A stretch of DNA of 8,332 nucleotides, taken from the IMG/VR virus record IMGVR_UViG_2728369183_000008. One strand, written 5' to 3'. Numbering within the stretch: position 1 is the stretch's first letter; each line of letters opens with the position of its first letter. Both the position numbers and the translations under genes were made by a program. The notes beneath the pieces are model-generated. The model was given only the letters and a program-made list of their open reading frames with translations. It did not search any database and was not told where the DNA came from. The DNA is from a virus. Taxonomy: Duplodnaviria; Heunggongvirae; Uroviricota; Caudoviricetes. Below, in pieces: positions 598 to 7,441 of the stretch.

Positions 598-728
598 CAG
601 AATCCTTCCGGATAATTAGCTCTCCCCTTTAAGGGACCATCCCTCTTATCCCTGCGCGCTACTTAAGTATTTTTGATTCTATTCCGGCACCGTCCAGAAC
701 TTCAAATGCGTTGAAAATAAAAACAAAA

Positions 729-744
729 ACCCGCCGAAGCGGGT
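729..744 (-). terminator. Rho-independent terminator at the 3' end of the hok mRNA
   Basis: + strand ACCCGC-CGAA-GCGGGT hairpin at 729..744, preceded on + by an A-rich run (709..729), which is a U-tract after the hairpin on the - strand transcript. Confidence 0.55.
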
Positions 745-813
745 TAAGTGCGGGTGCGTTGAGAATGCCTGCCACATCAGAGGTGGCGAGGGATTTCTCC
801 CTCGCCGGGTCTC

Positions 814-969
814 TTACTCCTCAGGTTCGTAAGCTGTGAAGACAGCGACCTCCGTCTGGCCGGTTCGGATTCGTACCTCGCAGAGGTCTTTCCTCGTTAC
901 CAGTGCCGTCACTATGACGGTTAAACAGATGACGATCAGGGCGATTAACATCGCCTTTTGCTGCTTCAT
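814..969 (-). CDS. hokD: Hok-family type I toxin, 51 aa, HokD/RelF-like
   Basis: Translation from the sequence: MKQQKAMLIALIVICLTVIVTALVTRKDLCEVRIRTGQTEVAVFTAYEPEE. Single TM helix followed by the conserved Hok C-terminal region (RKDLCE...EVAVF..AYE). AAGGAG sits 9 nt upstream of the ATG. Matches HokD as I recall it. Confidence 0.9.
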   Translation of the reverse strand: MKQQKAMLIALIVICLTVIVTALVTRKDLCEVRIRTGQTEVAVFTAYEPEE

Positions 970-1025
970 AGCCTGCTTCTCCTTGACCTTTCGGTCCGTA
1001 AGAGGCTAATCTCTATGTGTCGCAT
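966..1025 (-). CDS. mok-like leader ORF, 19 codons, stop overlapping the hok start (ATGA)
   Basis: ATG at 1025..1023 with GAGG 8 nt upstream; reads MRHIEISLLRTERSRRSRL and ends with TGA overlapping the hok ATG. Position matches mok of hok/sok loci. Short, so uncertain. Confidence 0.35.
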   Translation of the reverse strand: MRHIEISLLRTERSRRSRL

Positions 1026-1085
1026 AGATATGGCCTCAGATTAATGTTAAGCGTCTTGCAGGACGCGTAATGTTAACTGGGGCTT
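1019..1085 (+). ncRNA. Predicted Sok-like antisense RNA; ends approximate
   Basis: + strand -35 TTGACC (983..988) and -10 TAATCT (1007..1012), 18-nt spacer, lying opposite the hok ribosome-binding region. A transcript from here would be antisense to the hok mRNA leader and mok start, as Sok is in characterised hok/sok loci. No clear terminator found, so the 3' end is a guess. Confidence 0.25.
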
Positions 1086-1144
1086 TTCTCTATCTGCCTT
1101 TTGGTGTTCATGCCTGAGACAGATAGCCTCAAGCACCCGCAGTT

Positions 1145-1172
1145 ATTCTACTTAACTAAGATTTCCCCGCAA
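1145..1172 (-). promoter_or_regulatory. Candidate hok mRNA promoter
   Basis: On the - strand: -35 TTGCGG (+ coords 1167..1172), 16-nt spacer, -10 TAGAAT (1145..1150), a few nt upstream of the conserved hok mRNA 5' element GCGGGTGCTTGAGGC (~1140..1126). Confidence 0.4.
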
Positions 1173-1227
1173 ACCGTTTTTGTCCGGCACAGTAAATATC
1201 CAACTAAACCAATGGCGTTCGCTGTAT

Positions 1228-1407
1228 TTACCGCCAGTATTCAATGCACATGACCGCCATGAACACCCCTAAAAAAAGGGCATTTATATGTCCAAACATT
1301 AATATCAAAACATCAATTTTTTCCATATACCTTGCTGTGAAGATGATGGGCATACATGATGCGAACAACCAGAACGCAACAAACAAAAACTGCAATGCGT
1401 TTTTCAT
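1228..1407 (-). CDS. Small hydrophobic protein, about 59 aa from the internal ATG; function unknown
   Basis: ATG at 1407..1405 preceded by GGGGG 4 nt upstream; reads MKNALQFLFVAFWLFASCMPIIFTARYMEKIDVLILMFGHINALFLGVFMAVMCIEYWR, consistent with two TM helices. The longer track ORF (to 1446) starts at GTG. AT-rich region, so a chance ORF is possible. Confidence 0.3.
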   Translation of the reverse strand: MKNALQFLFVAFWLFASCMPIIFTARYMEKIDVLILMFGHINALFLGVFMAVMCIEYWR

Positions 1408-1527
1408 TATTCCCCCTACAATCAATGTGCAATAACATTTAAACACACCTCAATTTGGCCGGACATATAAATATCTAAACCAGAAAAAATCACTTACATA
1501 GCGTTACAAACTCTTTAGTCTAAATAT

Positions 1528-2197: not shown

Positions 2198-3392
<1,195 letters not shown>

Positions 3393-3578: not shown

Positions 3579-6013
3579 ATGAGTAAAATCTTTATTTGCG
3601 CTGCTATTCCTGACGAACAGGCCATAAAAGAAGATAGCGCTGTTGCGGTGGCCACTGCCATTGAAGCCGGTGATGAACGTCGCGCCCGCGCAAAATTTCA
3701 CTGGCAATTCCTGGAACATTATCCGGCTGCTCAGGACTGCGCTTATAAATTTCTTGTTTGCGAGGATAAACCCGGCATACCCCGCCCTGCCCTCGATTCC
3801 TGGGATGCTGAATATATGCAGGAAAACCGCTGGGATGAGGAATCCGCTTCCTTTATTCCGGTCGAACCAGAATCCGATCCGATGAACGTCAATTTTGACA
3901 AGCTGTCCCTTGAAGTACAGAACGCGGTCCTGGTTAAGTTCGGTACATGTGAAAACATCACCGTTGATATGGCGATTGACGCGCAGGAATTACTGCAGGA
4001 AGACGTTGCTACCTTTGACGGGCATATCGTTGAAGCACTGATGAAAACGCCTGAAATTAACGCTATGTATCCGGAACGCAAACTGTTCGCTATCGGATGG
4101 GTTAAACACAAATGTAATCCGGGTGCCAAATGGCCAGAAATTCAGGCTGAATTACGTAACTGGAAAAAACGGCAGGACGCAGAGCGCAAAGAGACTGGAA
4201 AATACACGTCTGTTGTTGATCTCGCCCGCGCCAGAGTCAATCAACAGCACACTGAAAACTCAGCAGGAAAAATCAACCCAGTCACTGCCGCCATTTGTCG
4301 CGAATACAAGCAGACATGGAAAACGCTGGATGAAGAACTGGCCTACGCTCTCTGGCCTGGCGATATTGATACCGGAAACATTGACGGCAGCATCCATCGC
4401 CGGGCAAAAAATGAAGTTATCGACAAAGATCGCGAAGACTGGAAGCGCATTTCCGCATCAATGCGCAAACAACCCGATGCCGTTCGCTACGACCGTCAGA
4501 CTATTTTTGGCCTTGTCCGTGAGCGTCCGATCGACATTCACAAAGATCCCGTAGCACTGAACAAATACATCACTGAATACCTGACTACCAAGGGCGTGTT
4601 TGAAGATGACGAAGGAACAAATCAGGGCACAGCTGGTACTCTCCCGTCACCAGTACCAGAAACTGATGCAGTGGAAACGGCAATGCCGGACAACGAAAAA
4701 ACCGAATGCGAAGTGGAAGACGAACCATCTGTAGAGCGTGAGGGACCGTTCTACTTCCTTTTCACCGATAAGGACGGCGAAAAATACGGTCGCGCAAACA
4801 AACTTTCTGGTCTGGAAAAAGCACTGGCCCTGGGAGCTACGGAAATCACAAAAGAGGAATACTTCGCACGTAAAAACGGCACGTACTCAGGTTCACAACA
4901 AAATACTGGTGCATCTGACACGATCGCACAACCAGAGCCGGTAAAAGTTACCGCTGACGAAGTAAACAAAATTATGCAGGCAGCCAATATCAGCCAGCCT
5001 GACGCCAATAAGTTGCTTGCTGTATCACGTGGTGAATTTGTTGCAGGGATTAGCGACCCGAATGATCCGAAATGGGTGAAGGGGATTGAAACCCGCGATT
5101 CAGTGAATCAGAACCAGCAAGAAACGGAACAGAACGGCCAGAAAGCGGAACAAAACAGCCCAAATGCGTTACAAAACGAGCCAGAAACGAAACATCCTGA
5201 ACCAGTGGCGCAACAGGAAGTGGAAAAAGTCTGCACCGCCTGCGGTCAGACCGGCGGCGGCAACTACCCTGATTGTGGCGCGGTGATGGGCGACGCAACA
5301 TACCAGGAAACATTCGATGAAGAGTATCAGGTTGAAGTTCAGGAAGATGATCCGGAGGAAATGGAAGGCGCTGAACATCCACACAAGGAGAACACTGGCG
5401 GCAATCAGCATCACGATAGCGATAATGAAACTGGCGAGACGGCAGATCACTCAATTAAGGTGAACGGTCATCAAGAAATCACATCCACCAGCAGGACGTG
5501 TGACCATCTAATGATCGACCTTGAAACCATGGGAAAAAATCCTGATGCCCCGATCATCTCAATAGGTGCAATATTTTTCGATCCGCAAACCGGAGATATG
5601 GGACCGGAATTTAGTAAGACTATCGATCTGGAAACTGCTGGCGGGGTCATTGATCGGGACACCATTAAATGGTGGCTTAAGCAATCACGCGAAGCGCAAT
5701 CTGCCATTATGACCGATGAAATCCCGTTAGATGATGCACTGTTACAATTGCGGGAATTTATCGACGAAAACTCCGGTGAATTTTTTGTTCAGGTCTGGGG
5801 AAATGGAGCCAACTTCGACAACACGATTTTGCGCCGTTCATACGAACGGCANNNNNNNNNNNNNNNNNNNNNNNNNNNNNNNNNNNNNNNNNNNNNNNNN
5901 NNNNNNNNNNNNNNNNNNNNNNNNNNNNNNNNNNNNNNNNNNNNNNTCGTTACCAGGCAAAATACGTTTCAGCTATCTGGCAAAAACTGATCCCGAGTCA
6001 GGCTGATTTTTAA
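3579..6013 (+). CDS. Prophage RecE-like exonuclease (often annotated exodeoxyribonuclease VIII) with a C-terminal DEDD-type 3'-5' exonuclease domain; interrupted by an assembly gap
   Basis: ATG at 3579 with GAGG upstream. Internal segment KLLAVSRGEFVAGISDPNDPKWVKGIETRD resembles a RecE segment I recall. C-terminal region has Exo I (MIDLETMG) and Exo II (GNGANFDNTIL) motifs. With the gap taken as 95 nt the in-frame stop is at 5990; if the gap length is a multiple of 3 the stop is at 6011..6013 (tail RYQAKYVSAIWQKLIPSQADF). The end coordinate is therefore uncertain. Confidence 0.75.
5852..5946. other. Assembly gap (95 N)
   Basis: Run of n characters; real length and content unknown. Confidence 1.
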
Positions 6014-6071: not shown

Positions 6072-6275
6072 ATGAGCAGCTTATTTTTAACCGAAGATGA
6101 ATTGCTAATATTAACGGGCTGCAAATATGCAAGCCACCAGCGAAAATGGTTAATGGAAAACGGGCTTCCGTTCTATACCAATCGTAGTGGCAAACCGATT
6201 GTCAGCCGGGATCTATTTACCTGCAATAAAACTTTACCACCACGCGAGGTAGAGCCGAATTTTGGTGCGATCTGA
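6072..6275 (+). CDS. Excisionase-like protein, DUF4224-type (67 aa)
   Basis: Small ORF immediately upstream of the integrase, with its stop overlapping the int start (ATGA at 6272..6275). N-terminal MSSLFLTEDELLILTGCKYASHQRKWLMENGLPFYTNRSGKPIVSRDLF resembles the DUF4224 family commonly paired with integrases. Not lambda-Xis-like. Confidence 0.65.
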   Translation: MSSLFLTEDELLILTGCKYASHQRKWLMENGLPFYTNRSGKPIVSRDLFTCNKTLPPREVEPNFGAI

Positions 6276-7299
6276 TGGGAAGACGAAGGAAAAATCCTGA
6301 ACACGAAAAATTACCTCCAAATGTATACCCAAATAAATATAGTTATGTATGGAAACCAACATCCAGAGAATCTGTCACACTAACCGCCATCAAGGATGGT
6401 TTAGCTGCTTTATGGAAAAAGTATGAGGAAACTGTAAATAATCGCGATCGTGCAATGACATTCGGTCGCTTGTGGGAAAAATTCCTCGCCAGCGCCTGTT
6501 ACAGTGACCTTAGTCCAAGAACACAAAAAGATTATCTGCAACATCAAAAAAAGTTGCTTGCCGTATTCGGTAAGGTACCAGCGGATTCCATAAAACCAGA
6601 ACACATCCGTCGATACATGGACAAAAGAGGGGAGCAGAGTAAAACGCAAGCCAACCATGAAAAAGCAGTATGTCCCGTGTTTACAGTTGGGGGTATGAGC
6701 GAGGGTACGTCAAGGCTAACCCATGTGCAGGTGTAAGTAAATTCAAGGCCAAAAACCGCGAACGATATGTAACCGACAAAGAATACCAGGCAGTATTAAG
6801 CGTTGCACCTCTTCCTGTTTTTATCGCAATGGAAATTGCCTATCTGTGTGCAGCGAGGGTTTCCGATGTGTTATCGCTGAAATGGGAACAGATTGGAAAC
6901 GACGGGATATTCATCCAGCAAGGGAAAACCGGAAAAAAACAGATAAAAGCATGGAGTCCACGATTACAGGCAGCGATCGAAAAAGCAAAACAGTTACCAA
7001 AATCTGCCTATGTGATCAGCAATCAATACGGCAACCGATATATGTACAAAGGCTTTAACGAAATGTGGGTAGAAGCAAGAAATCGTGCTGGAAAAATTTC
7101 AGGTATTTTAACCGACTTCACCTTTCATGATCTGAAGGCGAAAGGAATTTCAGACTATGAAGGAAGCAGCCGGGATAAGCAACTTTTCTCTGGTCACAAA
7201 ACCGAAGGGCAAGTGCTAATCTATGACAGGAAGGTTAAAGTTTCACCAACACTTGATGTCCCGTTACCTGAAAATATTCCAAGAAAATATTCCAAGTAA
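6275..7299 (+). pseudogene. Lambda-family tyrosine integrase, disrupted by a frameshift
   Basis: N-terminus MGRRRKNPEHEKLPPNVY resembles lambda Int (MGRRRSHERRDLPPNLY). C-terminal part has candidate catalytic residues R (AARVSD), K (QGKTG), H (TFHDL), H (GHKTEG), Y (LIYDRK). The reading frame changes between 6661 and 6733, most plausibly at the A5 run 6660..6664; the two track ORFs are 6275..6736 and 6670..7299. The HxxR box reads HDLK (AAG at the Arg position). Confidence 0.85.
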
Positions 7300-7351: not shown

Positions 7352-7441
7352 TGGCGGAGAGAGGGGGATTTGAACCCCCGGTGGAGTTGCCCCCACTCCG
7401 GTTTTCGAGACCGGTCCGTTCAGCCGCTCCGGCATCTCTCC
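7352..7441 (-). tRNA. serU: tRNA-Ser (anticodon CGA), type II with long variable arm
   Basis: Reverse complement reads GGAGAGATGCCGGAGCGG...CCGGTCTCGAAAACCGG...GGGGGTTCAAATCCCCCTCTCTCCGCCA. Anticodon loop CU-CGA-AA, T-arm GGGGG/CCCCC, 3' CCA encoded. 90 nt. Confidence 0.95.

What the first reader, a model, noticed from the sequence alone, without database searches (positions are those of the whole stretch)
729..1172. Apparently complete Hok/Sok-type type I toxin-antitoxin locus, not embedded in a relBE operon
The toxin ORF (814..969, - strand) reads as HokD/RelF. The locus also carries the regulatory parts of a functional hok mRNA: a short mok-like ORF overlapping the hok start, a candidate promoter, a perfect 9-bp stem with 4-nt loop in the 3' UTR (785..806), and a terminator (729..744). 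The 5' end element GCGGGTGCTTGAG (reverse complement of + 1128..1140) is complementary to the 3' element CTCAACGCACCCGC (reverse complement of + 750..763), giving 13 bp with a one-nucleotide bulge. This is the tac/fbi fold-back pairing that keeps full-length hok mRNA inactive. In K-12, hokD sits downstream of relB-relE and is regarded as a rearranged locus; here I find no RelB- or RelE-like ORF upstream (970..1527). This copy may be an autonomous, functional toxin locus inside a defective prophage.
Basis: partly seen in the sequence, partly recalled or inferred. Interest (0 to 1): 0.6.

Follow-up and report, generated by a model that had tools for sequence, protein, structure and literature searches.

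The report
Ordinary prophage hok/sok toxin–antitoxin cassette
This is an intact copy of the well-known hok/sok RNA-controlled toxin cassette carried by lambda-like prophages of E. coli; standing free of relBE is the common arrangement, and the K-12 relBE-hokD fusion is the exception.

Summary
The 51-aa ORF (814-969, minus strand) is identical to K-12 HokD. The leader (967-1138) matches the Rfam hok/sok model end to end. The 5'/3' (tac/fbi) pairing is in the minimum-energy fold, and it is conserved with compensatory changes in 37 hok loci from five genera.

I add the antisense Sok gene (about 1019-1087, plus strand). I also define mok: 19 codons, 1025-966, with its UGA overlapping the hok AUG.

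The implied rarity is wrong. At least 80% of the 444-nt locus occurs in 3931 of 5426 complete E. coli genomes. The K-12 relE-hokD junction occurs in 1165. The locus is 90% identical to hokW/mokW/sokW of phage 933W/Sp5, annotated in the 933W GenBank record and shown in 2021 to be a working type I system.

The only departure is the short mok frame, an allele present in about 777 records. Activity of this copy was not tested. Verdict: already known, low interest.

The parts
1145..1172 (-). Candidate hok promoter: -35 TTGCGG (1172-1167), 16-nt spacer, -10 TAGAAT (1150-1145), 4 nt before the first base of the 5' element (1140).
   Evidence: Read from the sequence. The -10 and the GTTTGCGGG block are shared with 933W, and the -10 also with BL21. 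-10-like hexamers lie at the same place in other hok loci. The strict sigma-70 scan did not call it.
728..1140 (-). Inferred full-length hok mRNA (413 nt): 171-nt leader, 156-nt hok ORF, 86-nt 3' UTR.
   Evidence: Minimum-energy fold -172.2 kcal/mol, z = -8.1, closed by the 5'/3' pairing. The 5' end is set by the start of the Rfam model (1138) and of the conserved GCGGG block. The ends are inferred, not mapped.
1127..1140 (-). tac (translational activator) element, GCGGGUGCUUGAGG.
   Evidence: It pairs with fbi in the full-length fold. It pairs with the following CUCAGGCAU in the nascent 55-nt fragment. It pairs with the anti-SD box in the 66-nt 5' domain. It is nearly invariant in 37 loci.
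1079..1085 (-). ucb / anti-SD box (AAGCCCC, mRNA nt 56-62).
   Evidence: GCCCC pairs with the mok SD GAGGC in the full-length fold. This helix has compensatory changes (columns 63/103 AU:26, GC:11). In the 5' domain alone the box pairs with tac instead.
1019..1087 (+). Sok antisense RNA gene (about 69 nt). Its single-stranded 5' tail is complementary to the mok start region. It ends in a long hairpin followed by GGGGCUUUU.
   Evidence: The position was transferred from the annotated sokW of 933W through alignment A1. The + strand folds at -29.3 kcal/mol (z = -5.0) and the sense strand at -17.8. The antisense strand is the more stable one in 37 of 37 homologs.
983..1012 (+). Sok promoter: -35 TTGACC (983-988), 18-nt spacer, -10 TAATCT (1007-1012).
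   Evidence: It is homologous to the sokW -10 (TAACCT). Takada et al. repressed sokW transcription by mutating the sequence around that -10, as the primer sequences in PMC8621323 show. Both elements are conserved in 37 loci. The strict scan did not call it.
1034..1037 (-). mok Shine-Dalgarno, GAGG.
   Evidence: It is invariant in 37 loci (alignment columns G104 A105 G106 G107). It lies 8 nt before the mok ATG. The same motif is named the mok SD in plasmid R1 (PMC9841398).
966..1025 (-). mok ORF, short variant: 19 codons (MRHIEISLLRTERSRRSRL) plus a TGA that overlaps the hok ATG.
   Evidence: The ATG is conserved 56-58 nt upstream of the hok ATG in 36 of 37 loci. The window has 56 nt, which puts mok in the +2 frame. 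The exact 86-nt allele is in about 777 E. coli records.
814..969 (-). hok toxin gene (HokD/RelF allele, 51 aa); its AGGAG Shine-Dalgarno ends 9 nt before the ATG.
785..806 (-). 3' UTR hairpin (9 bp, GAAA loop). By analogy with R1 it is the 3'-terminal hairpin of the processed mRNA and shields it from 3' exonucleases.
   Evidence: -19.7 kcal/mol, z = -5.3. It is conserved with changes on both sides in A1 columns 343-350/362-369. Its role is taken from PMC9841398.
750..763 (-). fbi (fold-back inhibitory) element, CUCAACGCACCCGC.
725..745 (-). Intrinsic terminator of the hok mRNA (AACCCGC-TTCG-GCGGGTT plus a T-run).

Best explanation
The region is an intact hok/mok/sok type I toxin-antitoxin cassette of the hokD/hokW clade. 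It is a self-contained 'moron' of about 440 bp sitting between the early-region genes and rem/Q of a lambda-like prophage remnant at the tRNA-Ser gene next to mtfA.

Proposed mechanism (the anatomy is shown here; the steps are inferred from the R1 and hokW systems):

1. A weak promoter makes a stable 413-nt hok mRNA.
2. While the transcript is nascent, the 5' tac element is held in a local hairpin.
3. In the finished transcript, tac pairs with the 3' fbi element. The anti-SD box then covers the mok Shine-Dalgarno, so the RNA is neither translated nor bound by Sok.
4. Slow 3' trimming back to the 785-806 hairpin removes fbi. Tac then takes the anti-SD box and the mok SD is freed.
5. The unstable antisense Sok RNA, transcribed from the plus strand across the mok start, pairs with this processed form. 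That blocks mok, and hence the coupled hok translation, and marks the duplex for RNase III.
6. If Sok supply stops, ribosomes translating mok run through the hok SD and stop on the AUGA overlap. They reinitiate on hok, and the 51-aa membrane peptide depolarises the cell.
For: Family membership of the parts:
- Toxin: Pfam HOK_GEF 82.9 bits; PHROG 251 'MokW-like host killing', E = 2.8e-33.
- Leader: Rfam RF01794 matched over its full length at 106.7 bits.

Structure:
- The full-length fold contains tac/fbi and the anti-SD/SD-mok helix.
- The tac/fbi duplex is -25.2 kcal/mol; 16 of 5000 shuffles reach it.
- In all 35 other loci with a recognisable tac, the best or next-best partner lies 45-56 nt after the stop codon.
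- RNAalifold recovers the pairing, with U-A in 24 loci and C-G in 11 at one position.
- 83% of cells are paired, against 34-55% when the partner is slid by 1-3 columns.
- The nascent hairpin, tac/fbi and tac/anti-SD conformers are all energetically reachable.

Sok:
- The position is homologous to the annotated sokW.
- The antisense strand is more stable in 37 of 37 loci.
- The promoter elements are conserved.

Relatives:
- The locus is 90.1% identical over 97% of its length to hokW/mokW/sokW of 933W and VT2-Sakai.
- For that locus, HokW toxicity, neutralisation by sokW from its own promoter, and partial RNase III and Hfq dependence were shown (PMC8621323).

Context and spread:
- The same slot (… hokD, rem, DUF968, Q) is used in other prophages.
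- At least 80% of the locus is present in 3931 of 5426 genomes.
Against: - No transcript, toxicity or processing data exist for this copy.
- Both promoters fall below the strict consensus scan.
- mok is only 19 codons. In R1, premature mok stops abolish Hok synthesis (PMC9841398), although here the stop lies on the hok start itself.
- The minimum-energy fold of the 3'-trimmed RNA keeps the mok SD paired. The activating conformer is 4.2 kcal/mol above it.
- Native chromosomal hokA, hokB and hokC loci failed to give post-segregational killing in earlier work, as summarised in bioRxiv 10.1101/2025.08.07.668861.
Confidence: 0.9

Rival explanations
1. The locus is structurally complete but translationally silent. 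The 19-codon mok frame, or weak promoters, prevent Hok synthesis. The locus would then act only as a source of Sok (immunity against incoming hok-bearing phages or plasmids) or be drifting towards decay.
For: mok is in the +2 frame and much shorter than the 49-70 codon forms in most relatives. R1 mutants with a truncated Mok do not translate Hok. Decayed copies exist elsewhere: a tac deletion in L009 and a hok ORF cut off by ISEsa1. Earlier work found native chromosomal hok loci inactive in post-segregational killing.
Against: The mok ATG and SD, the hok SD and ORF, and tac, fbi and the anti-SD box are all unmutated. The mok stop overlaps the hok start as AUGA, a geometry that suits termination-reinitiation. 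The same 56-nt spacing arose separately in hokC-type loci of E. ruysiae and E. whittamii. The exact allele is present in about 777 records, at varied positions and in varied strains among the rows listed.
Confidence: 0.15
2. It is a rearranged, relBE-derived hokD remnant as in K-12, and the upstream sequence is a relE 3' remnant.
For: The Hok protein is identical to K-12 HokD.
Against: K-12 homology ends 14 nt upstream of the ATG. The sequence beyond that point matches the hok-family leader model in full. There are no RelE or RelB hits.
Confidence: 0.01
3. The 5'/3' complementarity and the hairpins are chance features of a GC-rich UTR.
For: Shuffled 3' UTRs reach the observed duplex energy in 0.3% of trials, which is not astronomically rare.
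Against: The pairing lies at the same place in loci from five genera and shows compensatory changes. Homology to P1-type phage-plasmids begins and ends almost exactly at tac and fbi (window 752-1141).
Confidence: 0.01

Closest known systems
hokW/mokW/sokW of Shiga-toxin phages 933W and Sp5 (VT2-Sakai)
   Same: It is 90.1% identical in DNA over 97% of the locus. It has the same parts in the same order: promoter -10, tac, anti-SD box, Sok gene, mok ATG and SD, 51-aa Hok, 3' hairpin and fbi. It is likewise carried by a lambda-like prophage. [quoted passage not shown]
   Different: In 933W, mok is in frame with hok (57-nt spacing, a 70-aa Mok-Hok fusion); here the spacing is 56 nt and mok has 19 codons. 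The Hok C-terminus differs (FVDYESEK against FTAYEPEE). The terminator differs. In 933W the locus lies near the end of the linear genome record, among different neighbouring genes. Here the prophage has lost its immunity and replication region, so an induction-linked trigger may be absent.
hokD (relF) of E. coli K-12, Qin prophage
   Same: The Hok protein is identical. DNA from the rem side up to 14 nt before the ATG is 99.2% identical. The flank (rem, ydfU, Q) is the same.
   Different: K-12 has relB-relE in place of the whole leader, so it lacks tac, the anti-SD box, mok, sok and its own promoter. The K-12 junction is found in 1165 of 5426 genomes. The leader-bearing form is found in 3931.
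hok/sok (parB) of plasmid R1
   Same: It shares the regulatory logic and named elements (tac, fbi, ucb, mok SD GAGG, 3' protective hairpin, Sok promoter inside the leader), as described in PMC9841398. The Rfam model built on this family matches in full.
   Different: The toxins are distant: HokW, the close relative of this Hok, is 44% identical to R1 Hok. This locus sits in a prophage rather than a plasmid. The Sok hairpin is longer.
hokC/mokC (gef) chromosomal loci
   Same: Same family. Hok is 80-82% identical. The tac block is identical and fbi lies at the same distance from the stop codon.
   Different: The Sok-target hairpin is 18-20 nt shorter. The locus is in the chromosomal backbone rather than a prophage. 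The K-12-type copy in L019 lacks the fbi sequence after the stop codon.

Membership tests
[quoted passage not shown] | Hok/Gef-family toxin ORF of about 50 aa with a transmembrane helix | tested here: met
   Pfam PF01848 at 82.9 bits against a cut-off of 22; PHROG 251, E = 2.8e-33. The protein is identical to RefSeq HokD, WP_000813254.1.
[quoted passage not shown] | hok mRNA leader homologous in sequence and structure to the family | tested here: met
   Rfam RF01794, model positions 1-157 of 157, 106.7 bits against a gathering score of 59, at window 967-1138 (-).
[quoted passage not shown] | Long-range tac/fbi pairing between the 5' and 3' ends of the mRNA | tested here: met
   It is present in the minimum-energy fold and is worth 22.7 kcal/mol. 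It is conserved with compensatory changes in 37 loci.
[quoted passage not shown] | mok reading frame with its own SD, starting upstream of hok and overlapping it, with its SD sequestered by an anti-SD box | tested here: met
   The ATG (1025) and the GAGG SD are conserved, and the SD pairs with GCCCC. Departure: mok has only 19 codons and overlaps hok by 4 nt (ATGA). Whether coupling still works was not testable.
[quoted passage not shown] | cis-encoded antisense Sok RNA gene with its own promoter and terminator hairpin, covering the mok start | tested here: met
   Supported at sequence level only. The position is homologous to annotated sokW. The -35 and -10 elements are conserved. There is a strand-specific hairpin followed by a U-run. 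The promoter is not called by the strict scan. No transcript data.
[quoted passage not shown] | 3' hairpin that ends the processed, active mRNA | tested here: met
   Window 785-806, -19.7 kcal/mol, conserved. Processing itself was not testable.
[quoted passage not shown] | Hok kills; Sok neutralises; the duplex is cut by RNase III | not testable with these tools
   Shown for the 90%-identical hokW-sokW (PMC8621323). Toxicity was shown for the HokD coding sequence (bioRxiv 10.1101/2025.08.07.668861).
relB-relE-hokD operon (K-12 arrangement) | relE ends directly upstream of hok, replacing the hok leader | tested here: not met
   No RelE or RelB by tblastn. K-12 homology stops at window 983. No relE or relB is annotated in identical copies.

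The most novel reading that the evidence does not exclude
The 56-nt mok allele (19 codons, with its UGA overlapping the hok AUG) may be a distinct, working coupling mode: termination-reinitiation rather than read-through of a long overlapping frame. Together with the 57-nt (in-frame) and 58-nt (+1 frame) forms, it would show that only ribosome delivery matters, not the Mok peptide. It might also set a different threshold for Hok release in prophage remnants that can no longer be induced.
Probability: 0.3. Interest if true: 0.25.

Novelty: already known. Interest (0 to 1): 0.1.

Why it matters
It matters little beyond annotation. RefSeq labels only the hokD coding sequence in identical copies. 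The RNA parts (Sok, mok, tac, fbi) therefore go unmarked, and a reader who knows only K-12 may take a normal locus for an oddity. The useful correction is that the leader-bearing, free-standing form is the majority state in E. coli and the K-12 relBE-hokD fusion is the derived one. The variation in mok frame is a small lead for people who study translational coupling in type I systems.

Tried and rejected
- The strict sigma-70 scan found neither the hok nor the Sok promoter. I rely instead on conservation and on homology to the sokW -10, which Takada et al. mutated.
- The minimum-energy fold of the 3'-trimmed mRNA did not free the mok SD. A constrained fold shows the activating tac/anti-SD conformer 4.2 kcal/mol higher, and it is the minimum-energy fold of the isolated 5' domain. 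Thermodynamic folding alone therefore neither proves nor disproves the switch.
- MAFFT put the Photorhabdus fbi one column out of register, because those loci lack the bulge. This lowers the pair counts for the distal half of the helix. The per-locus duplex search is the cleaner evidence.
- My first tac/fbi regular expression missed BL21 because of one fbi substitution. An alignment showed that the BL21 locus is intact.
- I considered a relE remnant and chance complementarity and rejected both.
- The small ORF at 1228-1446 gave no family hit, so I did not pursue it further.
- I did not use the large protein-database searches or structure prediction. They would not change the verdict.

Full report
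**What is in the window.** The window is E. coli DNA. It ends with tRNA-Ser(CGA) at 7352-7441 (-) and mtfA. A lambda-like prophage is integrated there. Read on the minus strand it runs: frameshifted integrase, excisionase-like DUF4224 gene, a large exonuclease, an IS5-like ISKpn26 element (2344-3324), a 171-aa phage ORF (1528-2043), the hok locus, rem (346-597), and then DUF968, RusA and the Q antiterminator beyond the window. In strain 266917_2 the same hok block is 100% identical over 1 kb. There it lies in a prophage that still has the cI/cro-like, O/P-like and other early-region genes. In the window these have been replaced by the IS element. 'Defective prophage' is therefore correct.

**Check of the observation.**
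- The ORF at 814-969 (-) encodes a 51-aa protein with the same RefSeq accession as K-12 HokD. It scores 82.9 bits on Pfam HOK_GEF and matches PHROG 251, 'MokW-like host killing'.
- The hairpin at 785-806 is a perfect 9-bp stem with a GAAA loop (-19.7 kcal/mol, z = -5.3).
- The terminator at 728-745 is found by the scan.
- GCGGGUGCUUGAGG at 1140-1127 pairs with CUCAACGCACCCGC at 763-750, with one bulged C (-25.2 kcal/mol). Only 16 of 5000 shuffled 3' UTRs do as well.
- The 413-nt RNA from 1140 to 728 folds at -172.2 kcal/mol (z = -8.1), and its minimum-energy structure is closed by this pairing. Keeping the 5' element unpaired costs 22.7 kcal/mol.
- The short upstream ORF starts at ATG 1025, has 19 codons, and ends in a TGA at 968-966 that overlaps the hok ATG.

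**Is the leader a hok leader or a relE remnant?** The Rfam 'sok' family (RF01794) in fact models the hok-sense leader up to the hok AUG. It matches 967-1138 (-) over all 157 model positions at 106.7 bits, against a gathering score of 59. K-12 RelE and RelB give only chance-level tblastn hits in the window, and K-12 DNA homology stops at 983, 14 nt upstream of the ATG.

**Comparative test of the RNA anatomy.** A scan of one genome per species returned 53 hok loci from Escherichia, Shigella, Kluyvera, Pseudocitrobacter, Citrobacter, Photorhabdus, Pantoea and others.
- In the 35 distinct loci with a recognisable 5' element, a complementary 3' element lies 45-56 nt after the stop codon.
- I aligned 37 sequences from the 5' element to the 3' element (A1). 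RNAalifold recovers the end-to-end pairing, and one pair shows U-A in 24 sequences and C-G in 11.
- For my 14-bp helix, 83% of cells are paired, against 34-55% when the partner is slid by 1-3 columns. No shuffle out of 500 reaches the observed covariation score.
- The same consensus fold contains the helix that pairs the mok Shine-Dalgarno (GAGG, invariant) with the upstream GCCCC box, again with compensatory changes. It also contains the 3' hairpin.
- Homology to P1-type phage-plasmids begins and ends almost exactly at the two elements (window 752-1141). This marks the transcribed tac-to-fbi unit as the conserved module.
- Homology to many other prophages runs from about 719-727 to 1157-1158, so the cassette is about 440 bp.

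**The antisense gene.** The GenBank record of phage 933W annotates mokW, hokW and a 71-nt sokW. Transferred through the alignment, Sok lies at about 1019-1087 on the plus strand. A -35 TTGACC (983-988) and a -10 TAATCT (1007-1012) lie upstream.
- The + strand RNA folds into a long hairpin followed by GGGGCUUUU (-29.3 kcal/mol, z = -5.0). The same stretch on the hok strand reaches only -17.8, because G-U pairs on the Sok strand become C-A mismatches.
- This asymmetry holds in 37 of 37 homologs, with a mean difference of 9.6 kcal/mol.
- The single-stranded 5' tail of Sok is complementary to the mok start codon region.
- In Sp5 the homologous -10 (TAACCT) is the site around which Takada et al. 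introduced mutations to repress sokW transcription (PMC8621323).

**mok.** The mok ATG is conserved, but its distance to the hok ATG is 56, 57 or 58 nt.
- With 57 nt, Mok is an N-terminal extension of Hok (933W, BL21, hokC, Photorhabdus).
- With 58 nt, it is a 49-69 codon +1 frame.
- With 56 nt, as in the window and in two hokC-type loci of E. ruysiae and E. whittamii, it is a 19-codon frame ending on the hok start.
- All three frames are in use, so the Mok peptide is probably not what is selected (inference). The indels lie in a hairpin loop just after the mok ATG and in the loop near the Sok -35.
- The exact 86-nt allele of the window is found in about 777 complete-genome records.
- Whether coupling works in this geometry is the one real uncertainty. 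In R1, premature mok stops abolish Hok synthesis (PMC9841398), but those stops lie upstream of the hok start.

**How it most likely works.** The anatomy is shown here. The dynamics are inferred from R1 (PMC9841398) and hokW-sokW (PMC8621323).
1. The nascent 5' end folds into a local hairpin (nt 5-31, -17.2 kcal/mol).
2. The finished RNA is locked by tac/fbi, with the mok SD covered.
3. 3' trimming to the 785-806 hairpin removes fbi.
4. The 5' domain can then adopt the tac/anti-SD stem-loop. This is the minimum-energy fold of the first 66 nt (-25.6 kcal/mol) and lies 4.2 kcal/mol above the minimum for the whole trimmed RNA. It exposes the mok SD and the Sok target.
5. Sok binding blocks mok and hok. 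Loss of Sok lets Hok be made.

In Sp5, sokW disappears and HokW appears after mitomycin C in a RecA-dependent way, and the locus roughly doubles phage release (PMC8621323). hok is co-oriented with rightward early transcription, so read-through from the early promoter could occlude the Sok promoter on induction; this is my inference. In the window that promoter region has been deleted, so this trigger may be lost. The cassette may then act only as a stabiliser of the remnant, or as a defence module, or not at all.

**Comparison with what is known, and novelty.**
- At least 80% of the 444-nt locus is present in 3931 of 5426 complete E. coli genomes. The K-12 relE-hokD junction is present in 1165.
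- BL21 has the leader-bearing form at the Qin-like site without relBE.
- The literature already states that the K-12 hok loci other than hokB are disrupted, by insertion elements (hokA, hokC, hokE) or by genomic rearrangements (PMC12214031). [quoted passage not shown]
- The locus is 90% identical to an annotated and experimentally characterised one.

It is therefore an already known kind, and essentially an already known sequence.

**Verdict.** Observation confirmed. Interpretation supported. Ordinary. Interest 0.1.

Noticed in passing
window 1228-1446 (-), ATG at 1407: A hydrophobic 59-72 aa ORF lies between the 171-aa phage ORF and the hok promoter. It is not annotated in the identical RefSeq copies and has no Pfam, PHROG or NCBIfam hit. 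tblastn finds it at 93-95% identity in only three phage records.
   Followed up: partly
window 2344-3324 (-) and 6275-7299 (+): An IS5-like ISKpn26 element sits where the immunity, replication and other early-region genes lie in an otherwise identical prophage. The integrase is frameshifted. The prophage is a remnant.
   Followed up: yes
window about 5838-5960: A run of N (a masked stretch) lies inside the large exonuclease ORF 3579-5990.
   Followed up: no
window 825-837 (-), Tyr47 codon of hok (TAC, 831-829): The TACG motif in CTTACGAA is invariant in 37 loci and is flanked by a 3-bp stem, two of whose pairs covary (A1 columns 311-313/323-325: C-G in 22 against U-A in 14; G-C in 22 against A-U in 13). 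This fits the reported TadA A-to-I editing of hokD, which recodes Tyr to Cys (PMC12214031).
   Followed up: partly
L060 (E. coli NT1N34) 1501-2129: An orphan hok leader and Sok region whose homology to the window stops at the hok start, next to a partial ISEsa1 transposase gene. This is an example of a decayed copy. L009 is another, with a deletion in tac.
   Followed up: partly
L031 (Kluyvera sp. CHPC 1.2972) and L010: A relE-hok junction like that of K-12 also occurs in a Kluyvera genome, next to a hok only 70% identical in protein. The relBE-hok fusion is therefore not confined to E. coli.
   Followed up: no
L021, L026, L059: Near-identical E. coli-type hok sequences sit on very short contigs (275 bp to 3 kb) assigned to Acinetobacter idrijaensis, Xanthomonas pisi and a gut metagenome-assembled genome. 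These are probably assembly contamination.
   Followed up: no
alignment A1, mok region (window 966-1025): The mok-to-hok spacing takes all three values (56, 57 and 58 nt), so mok is read in all three frames relative to hok across the family. A recent survey says the Mok coding sequence has not been systematically defined.
   Followed up: partly
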